From IMG/VR virus record IMGVR_UViG_2541047898_000007: DNA of 41,901 nt; one strand, written 5' to 3'. The translations under genes and the position numbers were made by a program. The stretch is from a virus. Lineage: Duplodnaviria; Heunggongvirae; Uroviricota; Caudoviricetes. The stretch's first letter is position 1, and every line of letters begins with the position of its first letter. Shown in pieces: positions 2,835 through 15,652 of the stretch. Under the pieces are notes generated by a model. The model was given only the letters and a program-made list of their open reading frames with translations, was not told the origin of the DNA and ran no database searches.

Positions 2835-5800
2835 TTATGCCTGAGTACGCAGCGCTTCAAGGCGGCGCAGGTCGAAGTCGTTCAGTTCGTCGGTGTAGTC
2901 AGCAGTGATTGGCGCTGGCCATTCACCTGTGTCGAATCCGGTTGCGATATTGCGCATCGCTTTGCGGTACTCGAGCATACCCAGCTCCAGTAGTTCAGCG
3001 GATGCCTCGATGATGGCGATCCAGTGGTAGTTCTCGTCTTTGTTGACGAAAATCCAGAAGAACTGATCCAGCGCTGCGGTTTCGCAGTACATAGCCGCGC
3101 TCAGGTGATAATCACGTTCAATAATTTCCCGGTGTAGCCTGGCGCGCAGGCTTTCCTGCTTAACATTCCACATGCTGATGGTTTTCAGGTCTGCACCTAT
3201 ACGCACGCCATCCAGGTCGATCTCAAGGTCAGGGCGCACACGAACTTCCAAGCCCGTCTCCTCGTCAAAACCAAAGTAGCTCACCTCAACGGCTCGGCTA
3301 GGGTGGGTCAGCAGCATGCCGGCGGTCGGGTGTGCCAGAAGCGCTTTTTGAATATTCAGCGCGGTGCTCAGCTGCTGGCGGGTGACCAGCACTTTTCCTT
3401 CCGGGTTATCGCGCCAGGCATCCAGCAGTTCGTCGGCAAATACGGCATCTGGTTTGACTGCCTTCACGGCCTGGATCATGTCTGCTTTGGTACCGGACAC
3501 TTTCAGTGGTGCCGGTTTCTGTGCTTCCTGAGCCACAAGGTCAGGGTTGATGATTGCCAACTGCTCCAGCAGCGCGTCACGGCTGCCGCTGGTTTTAACC
3601 GGCGGCGGCAGGGTGGCGTTGTACTCTTTAATGCATGCCTTCATTGCCGTCGCCGTCTGCTTCTGGTCACCATCAATACGCTGGAAGTCAGCTGGCAGCG
3701 CCATATAGTTCTGTGCCGTTTCTTCCAGGTTAGCGCCAAGCGGAACCTGCGGCGGCAGGGTGGCGTTGTACTCTTCCAGTAACACCTTGATGTCGTCGGC
3801 AGACAGCAGCGCCGGCAGGCTGGCATTGTGCTCATCGATAAAGGCGCGCAGGGTCGCGGCCGTTGTGAATGCGCCTTCAGGGATCACCGGTTCAACGCTG
3901 AATTCTGCGTCCAGTAGTTCAGGCTGCAACGCCAGCGCATGCACCAAGTTGCCCATGTCCAGCACCGCTGAGCGCTCTTTGACGATGGTTTTCTCTACGT
4001 GGCGCGCATTGAAGTACATCAGCGAAACGCGCGCATCTTTCACCTGGGTTGAGCTGATGCCGTTGGCGGCGTGGTAAACCTCGTTTGGCAGCCCTTCATA
4101 GCGGCCTGGCTCGAAATAAGCGGGATAAACAACAGCTGGTTCGTCAGATTGCGCTTCTGGCTCGGTTTGTGCTGCAACTGGTTCGGTTTGGCTTACAGAA
4201 TCGCTATTTTTGGCGACAGAATCCGTATTCTGGTCTACATCGTCCTTCTGGCTGGTATCTGACTCTTCACCAGACTCCAGACTGCTTTCGCCTGGCTGTA
4301 CTTCATCACCAGCTTGTTTTTCATCACTGACAGTTTCTTGAACCTGCACATTGCTGGTGGTCTCCGTAGCCTTTTTCGTGCCATGAGTTGCTGAGTTCTG
4401 CAGCAAAGCCGTAACGTCGAATATTCCGTTGCCGACATTTTTAACCAGTTCTTGTTCGACTTTCTGCGGTTGTGCTGCCGCTTCCTCTGCGCGGCGGCGT
4501 GCTCCTTCTTCACGCACGCGTTGCAGGTTCTCTTCGTGAGTGCAGAAGGATTTGCGCGGAGACTCCTTACCTTCAGGTTGGGGAATTTCCTGTGCTGCGG
4601 GTTCAGCCTCATGCAACGGCAATAACTCGACCGCGGAATTGAACGCGGCTGTCATGGTCTGGTTAACAAATTCCAGGTGAGCGACAGGAGTTAAATGAAT
4701 ATTTTCCGGTGCGATACGTACCAGGTTAAAAATAGCCGTGCGGTTAACACCCAGAACGCCTGGCTGATTGCGCAGGATGTTGCTCCATGATTTCCATGGT
4801 TCTTCTTTTTTGGTCACGATTTCTTTAGCGCGACGAAGAATGCTGCCCGGGATCTCGAAGTGGTTGAAGTCCATAGGCAGAAGGGCACACGCAATCTCTA
4901 AATCGAGAGTGTCCAGTGTGTGGTGTGCGTCAGGTCCACGGTCAGTGACGTAACCGCCGTCGGCATTAGTGCCGGAATCAGTACGCTGCACACTACTGAT
5001 GCGATTACCGGCGGCCCATTCGCGAACGAGGATACCGCGGTCGATGTGATCTGTAGCGAACCACAATTTCAAAAACTGGATTAAGGTTGCGAGTTCAGGG
5101 ATTTTTCCATCGACAGGGAAGACTTTCTTAACGGCATTCACGACTTTATGAATATCGTGCTCAATGGCTTTTTTGAATGCTTCCACATTCTCAGCTGCCA
5201 GCAGCAGGTTCTGGACGTACGCGTCATCGGTGTCCATCTCAAGGCGGACAATCTCATTTTTCTGCCCTGCGTCGATGTGATAGAGATATTCACCATCACC
5301 GATGAACTGAGCCAGTACGCGCTGGCGGAATGGCAGGGTGGCAACAACGATCAGGTTCGGTTGCTGTGTCTGCTGGGATTGCTCTTCGGTATCGACTTCA
5401 CCATCAACGACGCCACCTTCTGCCCGGCCGTTCTCGTCGGTCTGGATACCGTCCTCAACAGTGAGATCTTGACCCGTTGTAACGTCAGCAGCGTTGCTGG
5501 TTTCAGTTTTGAGCAACTGCAACTTACCACTGCGCCAGTCTTCTACCAGTTGATTGCGGTCACCGGCATCGGTGTTCACCCAGTCAGACATGAATGCAGC
5601 GATCAATCTTGGCTCGTGCTCTTCGTCTGGTGTGAAAATGTCCTTAACCGCCCGAATCATTTTCCACTCAGCATTCAGGCTGAGTTTGGCGGTCGCGGGC
5701 ACATCGTTCCTTGCCACAAGCAGGCTATGGAGATATGTATTGCCTTCATCCAGTGACATTTCGCTGGCAGCCAACTGCTGCTCTTTAGTGACGTGGGTTT

Positions 5801-6224: not shown

Positions 6225-6363
6225 GTGAGATCCTCATTTTTGGGTGTTAGAATCCCCGGACCATTGATAGCGCCCATTGGGTTAACTTTGGTTTTAATGT
6301 TGTTTCCGGTGTAACTTTGGTCGGTACCACCGGACGTAGATCCCGCCTTGCGCGGGGTTTTCG

Positions 6364-6525
6364 TTATGCTTCGTGGGCCATCTGGTCGAACGAAGCGCAA
6401 CGTACTGAACAGTAATCACGTTGCTCGCGTTTCAACTGCGTGCCGTGGATAAAGAGCAGTTCGTTTTTAACTTCCTTCCCTTGCTTGATCGGCTTGCGGC
6501 AGTACGCGCATTTTTTCTCCTGCAT
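6364..6525 (-). CDS. Small zinc-ribbon-like protein (53 aa), absent from the ORF track because it is under 60 aa
   Basis: Manual translation of the reverse strand gives MQEKKCAYCRKPIKQGKEVKNELLFIHGTQLKREQRDYCSVRCASFDQMAHEA with CxxC...CxxxC spacing; sits in the leftward early operon. Confidence 0.4.
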   Translation of the reverse strand: MQEKKCAYCRKPIKQGKEVKNELLFIHGTQLKREQRDYCSVRCASFDQMAHEA

Positions 6526-6536
6526 AACTCACTCCG

Positions 6537-6845
6537 TTAATGGCTAAGGCCATGTCCTAAACCGTTTAGATAAACCTCAACCAGCAAATCTTTGGTGTAG
6601 GTACGTTCGATGCCACGGTGAAGATACAGGCGACCGCGTGCGTTAGCAGATGCGGTCCAGGTTGAGTCTTTGTGTTTTACAAGCATCCCCGGCTGAACTG
6701 CGCCGCGGTTTACTGTCTGTGTACCGTAGTGCTGATGAACCATGATGTACTCCAGTTTTTCTGAGTGAACTTCGCTGGTGTTGCTGCGGCGCTGATCTTC
6801 ACGGTTGAGCGCTTTAACTCTGCAATTCACCACCGCGAAGCTCAC
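6537..6845 (-). CDS. Hypothetical early leftward protein
   Basis: 102 aa ORF, first sizeable ORF downstream of the predicted PL; no recognisable motif. Confidence 0.3.
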   Translation of the reverse strand: MSFAVVNCRVKALNREDQRRSNTSEVHSEKLEYIMVHQHYGTQTVNRGAVQPGMLVKHKDSTWTASANARGRLYLHRGIERTYTKDLLVEVYLNGLGHGLSH

Positions 6846-7195
6846 TTCTGTGCTTTGCCCTTGTCGCCAAGCTGGCGGAACGTTTCAAACCTACTGCGCG
6901 TTTAAGTATTGTTTTGAATACCAAAACCGAGTCAAATCAGCTTTAGTATTGCCACTCTCAAGTGGTTATCTGTCTTTGAGTTTGTGGATGATGATCTGCA
7001 TCATCACAGTCCATACCAGATTGGTTATTGCAACCGCTATAGCTGCTGTAGAAACCAAAGTCGCTAACGAGTAGTTGTCTGCCATAAATCAATCCATCCT
7101 TTACATCCTGAGGACGTTTCACCCTTATCGCCTTATCGCCGGCCAGCGGAGTTTTGGGCCATCTGCGCATTTGTGTGCGTTGTTTGGATGAGGTG

Positions 7196-7237
7196 ATAAT
7201 AGCTAAAGCGATTATTTGAATCAATCGCCTAAACGAT
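7196..7237 (-). promoter_or_regulatory. Predicted leftward early promoter (PL-like) with overlapping operator dyads (OL)
   Basis: Minus strand reads TTGATT (plus 7219-7224), 17 nt spacer, TATTAT (plus 7196-7201); dyads ATAGCTAAAGCGAT (7199-7212) and ATCGCCTAAACGAT (7224-7237) match the ATCGC-N4-GCGAT operator pattern seen at OR. Confidence 0.45.
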
Positions 7238-7352
7238 AATATATTTAGATAAAGCGATAATTTTATGATTTATAAGATTATTTATTTGTTCGAGAAATGT
7301 GTGAGGAAATGACATTAGCGAAGTGATTGGGGGAAATTTAATCTGGTGAGGC

Positions 7353-7378
7353 AATAAAAAACCCGGCAAGCCGGGTTT
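7353..7378 (-). terminator. Rho-independent terminator immediately after the cI stop
   Basis: Plus strand aaaaaacccggcaagccgggttt; on the minus strand a GC hairpin (cccggc / gccggg) followed by a T-run. Confidence 0.6.
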
Positions 7379-8069
7379 ATGCGAAGCGCTTGTAGTCTAT
7401 TGATTGTCTCAGTAGCACTTTAGCCATTACGTAGAACTGATCTTCGTCTTCTGACTCAATATACCATTTCTCGTAGATAGGGTTGTCTGAGATAACAGCA
7501 AGCCGATCTCTTTGCATCTGAAGCCTTTTGACGTGCAGAGTTTTTCCGAACACAAATACGTAAACACCATCACCATCAAAATGAGTCACGCCAGTATCAA
7601 CAAAAATTTGATCTCCTGGTGAGATGGTTCCATCCATGCTGTCGCCGTTCACGGTAATAACTTTTACATTAGCTGCGGGGCGATTTCCGAAAAGTGCGCG
7701 AGCCTGTTCAGTTGTGTATTCGATTGCTCTTATGGTTTCGATAAAATCGCTGGTAACTAGCGAGCCAGGACCGGCGCTGGCCTTAACGTCAAGCACATCC
7801 ACGCGGTATATCTCATTCAAAACTGGTTTAATTTGGTATGGCGTGTTTACTTCGCGAATGCCAGATTCAAACATTTCACCTTGTCCTGTTGAAAGCCATT
7901 CAGGACGCACACCAAGAACAGATGCGATCTCTACTGTTTTTCGTGAGCCTTTCGCACCTTTAAGCAATTTATTTACGCTGGACTGAGCCATACCAACATC
8001 TTTCGCCAGCTTAGCCTGCGTATATCCAGCGACGTCCATTGCGTGCCCTAAGCGTTCTGAAAATCCCAT
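7377..8069 (-). CDS. cI: CI-like prophage repressor (N-terminal HTH, C-terminal S24 LexA-like autopeptidase domain)
   Basis: 230 aa; N-terminal QAKLAKDVGMAQSSVNKL HTH-like segment; C-terminal VNGDSM ... KRL segment with Ser/Lys dyad arrangement typical of S24 peptidases; divergent from a cro-like gene across an operator-rich region. Confidence 0.85.
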   Translation of the reverse strand: MGFSERLGHAMDVAGYTQAKLAKDVGMAQSSVNKLLKGAKGSRKTVEIASVLGVRPEWLSTGQGEMFESGIREVNTPYQIKPVLNEIYRVDVLDVKASAGPGSLVTSDFIETIRAIEYTTEQARALFGNRPAANVKVITVNGDSMDGTISPGDQIFVDTGVTHFDGDGVYVFVFGKTLHVKRLQMQRDRLAVISDNPIYEKWYIESEDEDQFYVMAKVLLRQSIDYKRFA

Positions 8070-8101
8070 AAAAGCCTCTGTTTAAGTCCCCTTTAAATGG
8101 T

Positions 8102-8170
8102 ATCGCTAAGGCGATTGCTTGGCAAAAAATCGCATAGGCGATTGACAATCGCTAAAGTGATATCCATAAT
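8102..8170 (+). promoter_or_regulatory. OR-like tripartite operator with rightward promoter (PR-like)
   Basis: Three 14 bp dyads ATCGCTAAGGCGAT (8102-8115), ATCGCATAGGCGAT (8129-8142), ATCGCTAAAGTGAT (8148-8161); TTGACA at 8142-8147, 17 nt spacer, CATAAT at 8165-8170, then cro-like ATG at 8198. Confidence 0.55.
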
Positions 8171-8793: not shown

Positions 8794-8885
8794 AGATGGC
8801 AGAAACCAGAAAAGGCGAAAGCCGCAGTGCACGAACACAAGCGGCTTTCTACGCGAATTAACTGAACAAATTCACAGGAGTAATT

Positions 8886-9812
8886 ATGGCAAATACTGCT
8901 GAAGTAATCAATTTCCCTATCAAAACCGAGCAAACAGGAGGTCCTATGGCCGACCTGTCCAACGGGTACACCCGGATCGCCAACGAGATTCAGAAGCTCA
9001 AACCACGCCTGCGCATGTCGGGGCGTGAATGGCAATGCCTGGAGGCGGTTATCTGGTTGACCTACGGATGGAACAAAAAACAGGACCGGGTTACTAATAC
9101 CGTCATCGCAGGGCTAACAGGCCTGGCTGATACGCATGTATCAGACGCGATCAGTTCTCTGGCTGAACGTGGAATTATTTTCAGTCACAAGCAGGGCGTG
9201 ATGAAAATTGTCGGTATAAATACTGACCTGAATGCCTGGATTTTGGACAAACCGAAAACGGGAAAACTCTTCCCGAAATCGGGAAAATCCTTCCCGAAAA
9301 CGGGAAAAACCTTCCCGGAAACAGTAGCCACCCAAGACTATAACAATAACAATATTAAAAGATCATCGTCAGAGAATTCTGGCGAATCCTCAGACGACCG
9401 GCTGAACAAGTTTTTATCAGCTCACCCTGAAGCGGTTATTTACACCCCCAACTTCACCAAGTGGGGAACAGTTGCTGACCAGCAATGCGCCGAGTGGATC
9501 CTCACTCTGCTCGAAAAAGTTAAACCCTTCCCGAAAAAACCCGTCATGGCCGCCTGGGCGAATGACGTGCGCCTGATGCGCGAGCTGGATGGCCGGAGCC
9601 ATCGTGAAATCTGCGAGCTTTTCCAGTGGGCCAGCAAGGACGCCTTCTGGCACGCCAATATCCTCTCGCCTGCAAAGCTCCGTGCTAAGTGGGACACGCT
9701 CTCACTTCAGCGCGACGCTGCCGCCCGTCGCACCACAACCGGCGGCGTCCCGGGCATCGACTTCAACAACACAGACTGGATCAACGAGGTGTTCGATGGA
9801 AAGACTATCTGA
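8886..9812 (+). CDS. Replication initiator, lambda O-like, with origin iterons inside the gene
   Basis: 308 aa; follows cII; contains the iteron array and an AT-rich stretch within the coding sequence as in lambda O; repeated peptide KLFPKSGKSFPKTGKTFPE encoded by the iterons. Confidence 0.7.
   Translation: MANTAEVINFPIKTEQTGGPMADLSNGYTRIANEIQKLKPRLRMSGREWQCLEAVIWLTYGWNKKQDRVTNTVIAGLTGLADTHVSDAISSLAERGIIFSHKQGVMKIVGINTDLNAWILDKPKTGKLFPKSGKSFPKTGKTFPETVATQDYNNNNIKRSSSENSGESSDDRLNKFLSAHPEAVIYTPNFTKWGTVADQQCAEWILTLLEKVKPFPKKPVMAAWANDVRLMRELDGRSHREICELFQWASKDAFWHANILSPAKLRAKWDTLSLQRDAAARRTTTGGVPGIDFNNTDWINEVFDGKTI
9251..9324. repeat. Origin of replication iterons (about 3.5 copies of a ~20 bp dyad unit TCCCGAAAACGGGAAAA) followed by an AT-rich segment (about 9335-9370)
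   Basis: accgaaaacgggaaaa / tcccgaaatcgggaaaa / tcccgaaaacgggaaaaa / cttcccggaaac read directly; similar in form to lambda ori iterons (TCCCTCAAAACGAGGGA). Confidence 0.65.
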
Positions 9813-13167: not shown

Positions 13168-13190
13168 AAGCCTCTTCGGAGGCTTTTTTT
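13168..13190 (+). terminator. Rho-independent terminator
   Basis: aagcctcttcggaggctt hairpin followed by seven T. Confidence 0.6.
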
Positions 13191-13281
13191 GTCGGCGTTA
13201 AATTGCTTTTGCCTGTATGCCAAGCCATAATATCCCTGTCAGCCTGAGAAACTGACGACCATCTGCGCCAAGAAGAACATC

Positions 13282-14736: not shown

Positions 14737-14873
14737 CATTTGAATCCTGTTTTTCCGATCACCTCCGCGTTCGCTGGCAGCGGCTTCGCTTATACCACTT
14801 TCCCGGCTCTGTGCTAACGGACTACCGGATACTGAAGAATTACGTGAAAACTTATGCTGGAGAAGCGCTATGA
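14733..14873 (+). CDS. YlcG-like small protein (46 aa), absent from the ORF track
   Basis: Manual translation [46 protein letters not shown]; ATGA overlap with the rusA stop and with the Q start. Confidence 0.45.
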
Positions 14874-15652
14874 ACCTTGAAAACACAGTGAAATACCACT
14901 TCGCTAAATCCACACTGATTAGCGATTCTCCGCGCGCTACCGCCTCCGATTCACTGACCGGTACCGACATAATGGCTGCCATGGGCATGACGCAGGAACG
15001 CGCCGCAATGGGTTACAGCGCCTTCCTCGGCAAGATGGGCATAAGCAATAACGACCGGGATCGGGCGATCGGTCTGCTGGCTGAGTACGCGATGACAAAA
15101 TGCGACAAGGTTGCCGCACTGCGTAAGCTCGGTGCCGCGGTTAAACCTCAGGTGATGCACCAGTTGGCCACCTTCGCTTTTGAGGACTATTCCCGCAGCG
15201 CTGCCAGCGTGAAGCAGTGCGATTGTTGTGACGGTCAGGGCTTCATTGAGGCTGACGTGTTTACCAATAAATTCCGTAAGCCAGAAGGGAAAATGACCGT
15301 GTCCGGGATGGTGAAGGTCAAAGAATCCATCAAAGTGCTATGCAAAAAGTGTAATGGCTCTGGTGTGGTTAGTGCTTCTTGCAGTGATTGCCATGGGCGC
15401 GGCAAGGCAGTGAACCAGGCTCTTACTGAGAAACAGGGCGTTCCTGTTCTGGCTGACTGTAAGCGCTGCGGAGGGCGTGGGTATGAACGACTTCCGTCGA
15501 CTGAAGCCTATGCTGCTGTATGCCAGATTACTGACGCCATTAGCCTGGACACCTGGAAAAAGTCTGTTAAGCCATTCTACGACCTGCTGATCACGAAATT
15601 TGATATCGAAGAGTCCTGGGCCGAAAAACAGCTTAAGCAGATAACGCGGTAA
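14870..15652 (+). CDS. Late-gene antitermination protein Q-like
   Basis: 260 aa; paired CxxC motifs (CKKCNGSG...CSDCHGRG...CKRCGGRG); position after rusA and before the lysis cassette. Confidence 0.55.
   Translation: MNLENTVKYHFAKSTLISDSPRATASDSLTGTDIMAAMGMTQERAAMGYSAFLGKMGISNNDRDRAIGLLAEYAMTKCDKVAALRKLGAAVKPQVMHQLATFAFEDYSRSAASVKQCDCCDGQGFIEADVFTNKFRKPEGKMTVSGMVKVKESIKVLCKKCNGSGVVSASCSDCHGRGKAVNQALTEKQGVPVLADCKRCGGRGYERLPSTEAYAAVCQITDAISLDTWKKSVKPFYDLLITKFDIEESWAEKQLKQITR

What the first reader, a model, noticed from the sequence alone, without database searches (positions are those of the whole stretch)
6850..7195. Leftward early leader lacks a recognisable N-like antiterminator; short hairpin as candidate nut-like element
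Downstream of the predicted PL the first ORFs are a 102 aa protein without an Arg-rich motif and a 53 aa zinc ribbon. An alternative 88 aa ORF (6958-7224, minus) would contain a basic N-terminus (MRRWPKTPLAGDKAIRVKR) only if started internally with a poor ribosome-binding context. A 5 bp stem hairpin (ccact-ctca-agtgg, about 6950-6964) is present in the leader. Whether this phage uses N-type antitermination, an RNA-based mechanism, or none on the left arm is open.
Basis: inference. Interest (0 to 1): 0.35.

Follow-up and report, generated by a model that had tools for sequence, protein, structure and literature searches.

The report
N-less phage leader, conserved RNA motif
This is the start of the leftward early operon of a Gifsy/Rac-type E. 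coli prophage with no lambda-N-like antiterminator; the flagged hairpin is an ordinary stem-loop after an overlooked 39-residue membrane-peptide gene, but the transcript carries two copies of a widespread, undescribed 60-base leader motif of unknown role.

Summary
The window is a prophage of E. coli HH107 (100% match). Its left arm is Rac/Gifsy-like: PL, kilR, ydaE, recE, recT.

The hairpin exists at 6952-6965, but 5-bp hairpins occur at 7.4 per kb here. It has no boxA, no GNRA-like loop and no partner in the PR operon. It also lies after the first gene, not in the leader.

That first gene was missed. It is a 39-aa hydrophobic ORF (6966-7085, minus). It is conserved behind four different repressors, with substitutions mostly at third codon positions. 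The 88-aa ORF is the unselected alternative frame. The 102-aa ORF is KilR, which most likely starts at Met35. The 53-aa ORF is YdaE.

I found no N homologue, no Arg-rich candidate, no HK022-type put and no Rfam family.

What is there is a ~60-nt motif present twice in the PL transcript (7123-7181 and 6851-6912). It also occurs in Gifsy-1/-2, mEp237, SPN3UB and at least 120 viral contigs. In the loci searched it was always PL-sense and usually single-copy. In 85 of 87 loci it ends 4-22 nt before the first start codon.

Most likely the left operon runs without N; no intrinsic terminator is predicted along it. The motif is probably a 5'-UTR module. An antitermination role is not excluded.

The parts
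7196..7224 (-). PL promoter (-35 TTGATT, 17-bp spacer, -10 TATTAT); inferred transcription start about 7189-7190
   Evidence: Consensus scan. It overlaps operator OL1, 7198-7213. A relative with lambda-like operators (L028) is identical from the -10 onward. The start site is inferred, not mapped.
7198..7260 (.). OL operators: three copies of the AATCGCTAAAGCGATT-type repeat also found at OR (8101-8162)
   Evidence: Pattern search gave 6 matches against 0.42 expected, all at OL or OR. The second and third OL copies were read from the sequence.
7123..7181 (-). Leader motif ('Gifsy-type PL leader core'), copy 1, in the ~105-nt PL leader
   Evidence: Covariance model R1 scored it 47.1 bits, E 8e-12. 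The strict pattern has 2 hits against 0.00 expected. The sequence is identical in L027-L034 behind a different repressor.
6966..7085 (-). First gene of the operon: 39-aa hydrophobic (single-helix-like) peptide MADNYSLATLVSTAAIAVAITNLVWTVMMQIIIHKLKDR
   Evidence: Homologues P0001-P0003 are 79-97% identical. In L028 and L035 it is the first gene after the repressor/PL, and in L036 it follows a PL-like promoter and a C-terminal S24-like fragment. Differences cluster at third codon positions. It is not annotated by PGAP.
6952..6965 (-). The flagged hairpin (A): CCACU-UGAG-AGUGG, directly after the stop codon of the 39-aa gene
   Evidence: It is conserved in L035 with an extra G-C pair and absent in L036. 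No U-tract follows in PL sense. On the + strand it is followed by a T-rich tail.
6917..6950 (-). Hairpin B, a 14-bp stem with G-U pairs (AAUACUAAAGCUGA...UCGGUUUUGGUAUU)
   Evidence: Minimum-free-energy fold. It is present in L036 with a U-to-C change that turns G-U into G-C. In L035 only the 3' arm is present.
6851..6912 (-). Leader motif, copy 2, upstream of kilR
   Evidence: R1 scored it 64.2 bits, E 1e-16. The same motif sits upstream of kilR in mEp237 and in about 60 E. coli genomes.
6766..6846 (-). Long imperfect hairpin, or GTG-initiated upstream ORF, between motif copy 2 and the kilR ribosome-binding site
   Evidence: Fold z-score of -2.25 for 6740-6970. The GTG frame is fused to kilR here (102 aa) but is out of frame (44 aa) in mEp237, L052 and L154. 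Other relatives lack the insert altogether.
6537..6743 (-). kilR (FtsZ inhibitor), 68 aa from Met35 of the 102-aa ORF
   Evidence: PHROG 294, E 1e-36, aligned from residue 28. NCBIfam NF008465 aligned 1-66 of the 68-aa form, scoring 62 bits, below its 92-bit curated cut-off. PGAP uses the same start.
6364..6525 (-). ydaE (zinc-binding protein)
   Evidence: NCBIfam YdaE_coli 99 bits, PHROG 1520 and the PGAP name.
6958..7224 (-). The 88-aa ORF: not a gene
   Evidence: It begins upstream of the inferred start site and overlaps the 39-aa gene in the frame that does not show third-position bias. It has no family hit.
7377..8069 (-). CI-type repressor (HTH plus S24 peptidase) with its terminator at 7359-7378

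Best explanation
The interval is the promoter-proximal part of the early-left operon of a Gifsy/Rac-type lambdoid prophage that has no N gene and most likely needs none on this arm.

Transcription from PL (start about 7190) yields a ~105-nt leader holding a conserved ~60-nt motif. It then runs through a 39-aa membrane-peptide gene, two stem-loops (the first is the flagged hairpin) and a second copy of the motif. After that come kilR, ydaE, recE, recT and a DUF4060 gene.

The flagged hairpin is an intercistronic stem-loop with no nut-like properties.

The conserved motif is a 5'-UTR module that abuts the ribosome-binding site of the first cistron. I infer that it sets translation initiation and/or the stability of that cistron, which is often toxic. 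Early ribosome loading would also shield the untranslated leader from Rho.

The second copy exists because the small-gene cassette, with its own copy of the motif, was recombined in front of a motif-kilR cassette.

Shown: the anatomy, the conservation, and the absence of N, nut and put. Inferred: the function of the motif and the lack of any need for antitermination.
For: No N:
- The PGAP annotation of the identical HH107 region has none.
- PHROG, Pfam and NCBIfam scans of 16 early ORFs found only KilR, YdaE, Cro, CII and a Q-like protein.
- No Arg-rich N-terminal ORF lies in the leaders.

No nut:
- boxA patterns are at chance level, and none falls in a leader.

No put:
- No similarity to HK022 putL/putR or HK639 putL beyond 13-nt chance matches.
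- Rfam gave nothing.

No need shown on this arm:
- No minus-strand terminator-like site lies between 7190 and 1200.

The motif:
- Exactly two copies, both in PL sense, and nothing in the PR operon even with filters off.
- One copy per locus in the 47 of 48 viral loci that gave a match (two in L111, none in L085) across 601 kb, with no further weaker copy.
- Present in Gifsy-1/-2, SPN3UB, PHB10, mEp237 and SEN34, whose records show no N.
- In 85 of 87 distinct loci the next start codon preceded by a Shine-Dalgarno lies 4-22 nt downstream. These starts begin with 35 different six-residue N-termini, spanning many unrelated families.
- A weak motif-like hit coexists with an HK022-type putL in L018. 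This argues the motif is not itself the antiterminator.
- Homology breakpoints between prophages fall at the motif edges, 6902/6909 and 7166.
Against: - A motif found once per phage, only at the head of the PL operon, and more conserved in sequence than its flanks also fits a loading site for a processive antitermination factor.
- Rho-dependent terminators cannot be predicted with these tools, so 'no antitermination needed' is not demonstrated.
- The PR operon has a canonical intrinsic terminator (13168-13193) upstream of Q and no known means of reading through it. The phage may therefore have an unrecognised antitermination system after all.
- Structural support for the motif's short GC hairpin is weak. 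The stem is nearly invariant, with only 2 cells showing double changes. Most sequences were also found with a pattern that fixes those bases.
- Two alternative pairings are thermodynamically ambiguous.
- No experiment bears on any of this.
Confidence: 0.5

Rival explanations
1. The ~60-nt motif, with its 5' companion hairpin, is a cis-acting RNA element. Alone or with a host factor, it makes PL transcription complexes resistant to termination, probably Rho-dependent. It would be a functional analogue of put or nut for the left arm only.
For: It sits at the position of nutL/putL, within +10 to +70 of the inferred start. It is typically single-copy per phage, is PL-sense, and was found in phages without a recognisable N gene. 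Its sequence is conserved across different immunity types and downstream genes. Specialists already expect RNA-based antitermination in N-less lambdoids (PMC12315714). KilR-type genes are known to be kept silent by Rho/NusG in Rac (titles and abstracts, plus my own knowledge of Cardinale et al. 2008).
Against: There is no counterpart in the PR operon, although that arm has the clear terminator. No intrinsic terminator is predicted downstream in the left operon. Covariation is weak. A weak motif-like copy coexists with a genuine putL in L018 and lies after terminators, next to a start codon. The motif always abuts a ribosome-binding site.
Confidence: 0.2
2. The motif has no function of its own. 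It is a conserved junction ('linker') at which lambdoid modules recombine, and the two copies are the scar of inserting the small-gene cassette.
For: Homology between prophages ends at the motif edges. Identical sequence from the -10 onward sits behind unrelated operators. Many different genes follow the motif. Duplicated copies are seen only in the window type (including L111 and L027-L034) and in L035.
Against: Conservation of about 90% or more over 60 nt across Escherichia, Salmonella, Klebsiella and Citrobacter phages, with unrelated flanks, needs selection. U-G wobbles are tolerated only in the transcribed sense. Position relative to the start codon is fixed.
Confidence: 0.12
3. Hairpins A and B act in the opposite direction, as an intrinsic terminator for a rightward antisense transcript across the kilR leader. 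Alternatively they act as a leaky attenuator of PL transcription between the small gene and kilR.
For: On the + strand, hairpin A is followed by a T-rich tail and was picked by the terminator scan (6951-6966). An antisense sRNA gene (isrB-like) does exist nearby on the + strand.
Against: No + strand promoter-like site lies between 6362 and 6950. The isrB-like RNA has its own terminator at about 6340-6362. No U-tract follows in PL sense. Hairpin A is absent in L036, and hairpin B cannot form in L035.
Confidence: 0.08
4. One reading: the hairpin is a boxB-like nut element used by an unrecognised N-like protein.
For: Only that a hairpin exists in the promoter-proximal transcript, and that the right arm has a terminator that something must overcome.
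Against: There is no boxA, no GNRA-like pentaloop, no second site in the PR operon, no Arg-rich protein and no N-family hit. The hairpin lies 3' of a translated gene and is not beyond chance.
Confidence: 0.03

Closest known systems
Left-operon leaders of Salmonella prophages Gifsy-1 and Gifsy-2 (also SPN3UB, mEp237, PHB10); uncharacterised
   Same: They carry the same ~60-nt motif, in PL sense, just after the repressor gene and just before a small first gene. The downstream modules (ydaE, recE/recT) are the same, an isrB sRNA lies antisense upstream of recE, and no N gene is present.
   Different: Gifsy-1/-2 have a 6-bp 5' hairpin (GACAAC...GUUGUC) where the window has a 4-bp one. They have a single copy of the motif and a different first gene (MIDFARKP..., 38 aa). 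Their repressors work with antirepressors, whereas this one is a CI/S24 type. mEp237 and SPN3UB have the long form, with an extra structured 5' module that is absent here.
Lambda nutL with N protein
   Same: Position: a conserved RNA element between PL and the first gene of the early-left operon.
   Different: No N gene, no boxA, no boxB-type hairpin and no nutR counterpart. Here the motif touches the ribosome-binding site.
HK022/HK639 putL antiterminator RNA
   Same: A promoter-proximal RNA of about 60-70 nt in a lambdoid phage without N. Relatives of this very repressor family carry a real putL (L018).
   Different: There is no sequence similarity. There is no pair of adjacent long stems, covariation is weak, and no right-arm copy exists. 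A dependence on the beta' zinc-binding domain could not be tested.
E. coli K-12 Rac prophage left arm (racR - ydaG - ydaF - kilR - ydaE - racC - recE - recT)
   Same: Same operon logic and the KilR, YdaE, RecE and RecT families. A weak motif-like match (25.9 bits) lies just upstream of ydaG, the first gene after racR.
   Different: The Rac kilR leader is unrelated in sequence and holds the annotated sRNA KilS. Rac has sieB, ydaF and ydaG between PL and kilR.

Membership tests
Lambda-type N/nut antitermination | N-family protein with an N-terminal arginine-rich motif encoded just downstream of PL | tested here: not met
   No N hit in PHROG, Pfam or NCBIfam for the PL-proximal ORFs or for 10 further early ORFs. 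PGAP names none. A six-frame scan found no Arg-rich N-terminus in either early leader.
Lambda-type N/nut antitermination | boxA (CGCUCUUA / UGCUCUUUAACAA-like) a few bases upstream of the hairpin | tested here: not met
   14 matches against 10.4 expected, and 19 against 28.9 expected. None lies in the PL or PR leader. The best one (6446-6458, 2 mismatches) is inside ydaE and is not conserved in Gifsy-1 ydaE.
Lambda-type N/nut antitermination | boxB: short GC-rich stem with a GNRA-like pentaloop | tested here: not met
   The flagged hairpin has a UGAG tetraloop, and 3 of its 5 stem pairs are G-C (2 are A-U).
Lambda-type N/nut antitermination | A second, similar site in the PR operon (nutR) | tested here: not met
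   The cro-cII gap is 41 nt with no similar hairpin. The cII-O gap holds an oop-like terminator on the other strand.
HK022-type put RNA | Sequence similarity to putL/putR (two adjacent stem-loops, about 70 nt, starting near +3 of PL) | tested here: not met
   blastn-short with HK022 putL/putR, HK639 putL and the L018 putL gave only 10-13 nt chance matches, none in a leader. The leader does not fold better than shuffles, z = +0.61.
HK022-type put RNA | Action through the RNA polymerase beta' zinc-binding domain | not testable with these tools
   This needs genetics or biochemistry.
Gifsy-type PL leader motif (defined here; no published family found) | Consensus AACGCGCA(G/U)NAGGU - 2 to 6 nt - AAACGUUC - CGCYRGCC(Y)GGCG - AYAAGG(G)CAAA | tested here: met
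   Two matches to model R1, 64.2 and 47.1 bits.
Gifsy-type PL leader motif (defined here; no published family found) | PL-sense, downstream of the repressor-proximal leftward promoter, ending a few bases before the first start codon | tested here: met
   Copy 1 lies at about +10 to +67 of the inferred PL transcript. Copy 2 ends 5 nt (13 nt from the fixed AAGG of the motif) before the GTG of the kilR upstream ORF. The family-wide figure is 85 of 87 loci within 22 nt. Copy 1 is atypical: it ends 37 nt before the ATG, and the equivalent of the L035 start codon reads ACG here.
Gifsy-type PL leader motif (defined here; no published family found) | Conserved RNA secondary structure | tested here: inconclusive
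   The short GC stem is 98.5% paired but almost invariant, and it was ascertained by pattern. A correlated indel (loop U/C with an extra G: 58 against 69 sequences, 1 exception) supports an alternative pairing. Predicted probabilities are split between the two.
   KilR: PHROG 294 at 1e-36 and NCBIfam NF008465 at 3.6e-17 (62 bits, below its 92-bit curated cut-off). YdaE: NF041288 at 99 bits, above its cut-off of 35.

The most novel reading that the evidence does not exclude
The ~60-nt Gifsy-type leader motif would be a new class of cis-acting RNA that protects PL transcription from termination, probably by Rho, in N-less lambdoid phages. It occurs here in two copies and elsewhere pairs with a strongly covarying 65-nt 5' module. 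That would answer how Gifsy-, Rac-, ST64B- and SfV-like phages manage early gene expression without N.
Probability: 0.2. Interest if true: 0.75.

Novelty: new variant of a known kind. Interest (0 to 1): 0.45.

Why it matters
Many lambdoid phages of Escherichia, Salmonella, Shigella and Klebsiella have no N gene, including Gifsy-1/-2, which carry virulence genes. How they control early transcription is not known, and recent work simply guesses 'put-like' (PMC12315714).

This analysis removes a false lead, the hairpin. It adds a missed small membrane-protein gene. It also defines a concrete, widespread, unannotated leader motif that can be mutated and tested in existing Gifsy genetic systems. 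In related phages it points to a second, well-structured leader RNA that sits ahead of terminators.

If neither element has a transcriptional role, the result is still useful. It would show that this left operon is built to run without antitermination, and that the unexplained terminator lies on the right arm, before Q.

Tried and rejected
- Rfam at gathering and E-value thresholds, on the window and on Gifsy-1, ST64B, SfV and WEM25 loci: only isrB and STnc100, nothing for the leader.
- HK022/HK639 put similarity: none. nhmmer with the put alignment printed no output, so I rely on blastn-short.
- boxA searches: chance level.
- The 88-aa ORF as an N candidate: rejected by frame analysis and the lack of any family hit.
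- Base pairing of the isrB-like sRNA with the leader: 15 of 200 shuffles scored as well, so it is not significant.
- An internal promoter TTGACT-16-AACAAT (6935..6908) for kilR: the spacing is not conserved in L035 (19 nt), so it is probably chance.
- K-12 Rac KilS sRNA as a homologue of the kilR leader: the sequences are unrelated.
- ops/RfaH, CsrA and sigma-dependent pause readings of GGCGAYAAGG: compared by eye with consensus sequences from memory only. Key positions do not fit, so I did not pursue them.
- Literature search for the motif strings, and for Gifsy leader or antitermination work: nothing found. King et al. 2011 could not be read, so I used the HK639 GenBank annotation of putL instead.

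Full report
**Origin and layout.** The window matches the chromosome of E. coli HH107 at 100% identity. It is a lambdoid prophage next to kch. From the right end of the left arm the layout is:
- a CI-type repressor (7377-8069, minus) with its terminator;
- OL/PL;
- 633 bp that PGAP leaves unannotated;
- kilR, ydaE, recE, recT and a DUF4060 gene, all on the minus strand;
- a convergent integrase.

The right arm has cro, cII, O, P, nin-type genes and a Q-like antiterminator at 14870-15652. PL is TTGATT-17-TATTAT at 7224..7196. It overlaps an operator repeat that recurs at OR; the repeat has 6 matches against 0.42 expected. I infer a transcription start near 7190.

**Checking the observation.** The hairpin is real (6952-6965; RNA sense CCACU-UGAG-AGUGG). 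However, perfect 5-bp stems with 3-8 nt loops occur 309 times in the window, or 7.4 per kb.

KilR most likely starts at Met35 of the 102-aa ORF, for three reasons:
- the profiles align from there;
- PGAP uses that start;
- in mEp237, L052 and L154 the GTG extension is out of frame with kilR.

The true first gene was missed. It is a 39-aa hydrophobic ORF at 6966-7085 (minus) with an AAGGA Shine-Dalgarno. The protein database holds three homologues of 79-97% identity. In L028 and L035 it is the first gene after the repressor and PL, behind a lambda-like CI and a short HTH_3 repressor. In L036 it follows a PL-like promoter and a C-terminal S24-like ORF fragment. With the window's CI/S24 repressor that makes four immunity contexts.

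Between these copies, 12 of 16, 15 of 21 and 14 of 18 nucleotide differences fall at third codon positions of this frame. The 88-aa ORF is the overlapping frame, starts upstream of the inferred transcript start and has no family hit. It is not a gene. The flagged hairpin begins one base after the stop codon of the 39-aa gene, so it is intercistronic and not in the leader.

**Is there an N, a nut or a put?**
- No N-family hit came from PHROG, Pfam or NCBIfam for 16 early ORFs.
- A six-frame scan found no Arg-rich N-terminus in either early leader.
- boxA patterns are at chance level and none is in a leader.
- The hairpin loop is not GNRA-like.
- The cro-cII gap is only 41 nt. The cII-O gap holds what looks like an oop-type antisense RNA terminator.
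- HK022 putL/putR, HK639 putL (as annotated in its GenBank record) and a putL in a relative (L018) have no counterpart in the window.
- Rfam finds nothing in the leader.

**What the leader does contain.** I compared the leader with relatives that share the repressor and with contigs that carry the small gene. This showed a conserved stretch present twice in the window, both times in PL sense: 7123-7181 in the leader and 6851-6912 upstream of kilR.

A strict pattern (CCGCYRGC-N1-3-GGCGAYAAGG) has 2 hits against 0.00 expected. The motif is 98-100% identical in Gifsy-1 and Gifsy-2. It also occurs in SPN3UB, FSL SP-016, PHB10, mEp237, SEN34 and several Klebsiella phages.

A covariance model built from 60 sequences gave these results:
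- only the two copies in the window, even with filters off;
- one copy per locus in the 47 of 48 viral loci that gave a match, over 601 kb (two in L111, none in L085), with no further weaker copy;
- a weak match just upstream of ydaG in K-12 Rac.

The consensus is AACGCGCA(G/U)NAGGU, 2-6 nt, AAACGUUC, CGCYRGCC(Y)GGCG, AYAAGG(G)CAAA. In 85 of 87 distinct loci an SD-preceded start codon follows within 4-22 nt. These starts begin with 35 different six-residue N-termini, spanning many unrelated families: KilR types, several small hydrophobic peptides, the MIDFARKP peptide of Gifsy-1 and others.

The motif has two settings:
- Short form: the transcript starts CAUC, then a 5' hairpin of variable sequence, then the motif. 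Gifsy-1/-2 and the window's copy 1 are of this kind.
- Long form: a further 65-nt module precedes the motif. That module is absent from the window.

**Structure of the motif.** A short GC stem (CGCYR/YGGCG) is 98.5% paired. It is almost invariant, though, and most sequences were found with a pattern that fixes it. This is therefore weak evidence; only 2 cells show double-sided change.

A correlated indel supports an alternative pairing, GCC(U)/(G)GGC. An extra loop U or C goes with an extra downstream G in 58 sequences, 69 have neither, and there is one exception. Predicted pair probabilities are split between the two. U-G wobbles are compatible only with the transcribed strand. I conclude that the motif is defined by sequence more than by demonstrable structure.

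**How it most likely works.** No terminator-like site is predicted on the minus strand between PL and the end of the operon. The genes are closely packed. This gives no sign that processive antitermination is needed on the left arm.

The motif always touches a ribosome-binding site. It is found at the first cistron only. In L018 a weak copy coexists with a real putL and lies after terminators, next to a start codon. The best-supported reading is therefore a 5'-UTR module governing translation start and/or stability of the first cistron, which is often toxic.

The duplication is explained by recombination within the motif. Homology breakpoints between prophages fall at its edges, at 6902/6909 and 7166. 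A relative with lambda-type operators is identical from the -10 onward. This function is inferred, not shown, and I give it 0.5.

The main rival, at 0.2, is that the motif is a loading site or self-acting RNA that protects PL transcription, for example from Rho. Its single-copy, promoter-proximal, strongly conserved nature fits that. Rho-dependent sites cannot be predicted here.

**What remains unexplained.** The PR operon has a canonical intrinsic terminator (AAGCCUC-UUCG-GAGGCUU followed by seven U; 13168-13193) between the replication genes and Q. I found no N, nut, put or motif on that arm. The phage may therefore still have an unrecognised antitermination device, but on the right arm.

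**Seen in related loci.** The 65-nt 5' module of long-form leaders occurs in mEp237 and SPN3UB. It also occurs without the motif in ST64B, SfV, SfII, SfIV, ZF40 and phiNP. It has strong covariation:
- 93.5% of cells are paired, against at most 47% for slid controls;
- 9 of 14 pairs show compensatory double changes;
- the covariation score is 0.385 against 0.139 for shuffles, exceeded in 0 of 500.

The module starts about 10 nt into the PL transcript. In ST64B and SfV it is followed by long untranslated leaders with terminator-like hairpins; the SfV record annotates one. It has no Rfam family, and I found no paper containing its sequence. It is a better candidate than anything in this window for a new put-like antiterminator.

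**Verdict.** The absence of N is supported. The hairpin as a nut-like element is not. The region is an N-less Gifsy/Rac-type left-operon head with a missed small gene and two copies of a widespread, undescribed leader motif.

Noticed in passing
Related loci, not the window: L160 1488-1563 (ST64B), L161 1488-1563 (SfV), L001 4102-4177 (mEp237), about 45 IMG/VR loci: A 65-nt structured RNA lies at about +10 of PL transcripts in N-less lambdoid phages (consensus CCACC-AA-GGC(AGGAC)GCC-CACGAAGUAGCCG-CCGNN(GGCAUACGAA..)NNCGG-AUGA-GGUGG). 9 of 14 pairs show compensatory changes, and 93.5% of cells are paired against at most 47% for slid controls. In ST64B and SfV it precedes long leaders with terminator-like hairpins. 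It has no Rfam family. It is a candidate new put-like antiterminator class.
   Followed up: partly
window 13168-13193 (+): A canonical intrinsic terminator (AAGCCTC-TTCG-GAGGCTT followed by seven T) lies in the PR operon between the replication/early genes and the nin/Q region. No N, nut, put or leader motif is present on that arm. How Q gets expressed is unexplained.
   Followed up: partly
window 6266-6362 (+), promoter-like 6225-6253: An isrB-like Hfq-binding sRNA gene (32 bits against a gathering score of 35) lies antisense to the PL operon between ydaE and recE, with its own terminator. Gifsy-1 has a full-scoring isrB (99 bits) at the same relative position, and WEM25 has a 30-bit copy.
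   Followed up: partly
window 8817-8849 hairpin and 8883-8911 promoter-like site, both on the minus strand: This looks like an oop-type antisense RNA. A Po-like promoter (TTGATT-17-CATAAT with an extended TG) sits at the start of the O gene and reads leftward into a 9-bp hairpin plus T-tract at the end of cII. HK639 annotates an 'M3-like RNA' at the same position.
   Followed up: no
window 6766-6846 (-): An ~80-nt imperfect hairpin, or GTG-initiated upstream ORF (MSFAVVNCRVK...), lies between motif copy 2 and the kilR ribosome-binding site. The peptide is conserved. The ORF is fused in frame to kilR in some prophages and out of frame (44 aa) in others. Other relatives lack the insert. It may be a regulatory leader for the toxic kilR.
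   Followed up: partly
L014 and L015 about 4890-5130; L018 about 4790-4890; L008 and L013 about 4880-4960: Phages with related CI repressors carry quite different PL leaders. The Pantoea loci have boxA (GCTCTTTAACAA), a hairpin and an N-like protein (MNSKQRYNAKRAAEHRAKK...). L018 has an HK022-type putL. L008 and L013 have a boxA-like sequence inside a long non-coding leader that starts like the HK639 leader. Leader and antitermination modules are swapped independently of immunity.
   Followed up: partly
window 7186-7190 and 7094-7098 (-); also Gifsy-1, L003 and most short-form leaders: PL transcripts of many immunity types begin with the same CAUC(C). This is complementary to the GGAUG in or near the Shine-Dalgarno of the first gene. 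The minimum-free-energy folds of the window and L003 leaders pair these two ends. It could occlude the ribosome-binding site.
   Followed up: no
window 6446-6458 (-), inside ydaE: An 11-of-13 match to rrn boxA (TGCTCTTTATCCA) lies in PL sense. The overall count is at chance level and the Gifsy-1 ydaE does not have it, so it is probably fortuitous.
   Followed up: yes
L159 2961-3015 (-) = E. coli K-12 Rac, between racR and ydaG: A weak match (25.9 bits) to the leader motif lies directly upstream of ydaG, the first gene of the Rac left operon. This would allow the motif to be tested in K-12.
   Followed up: no
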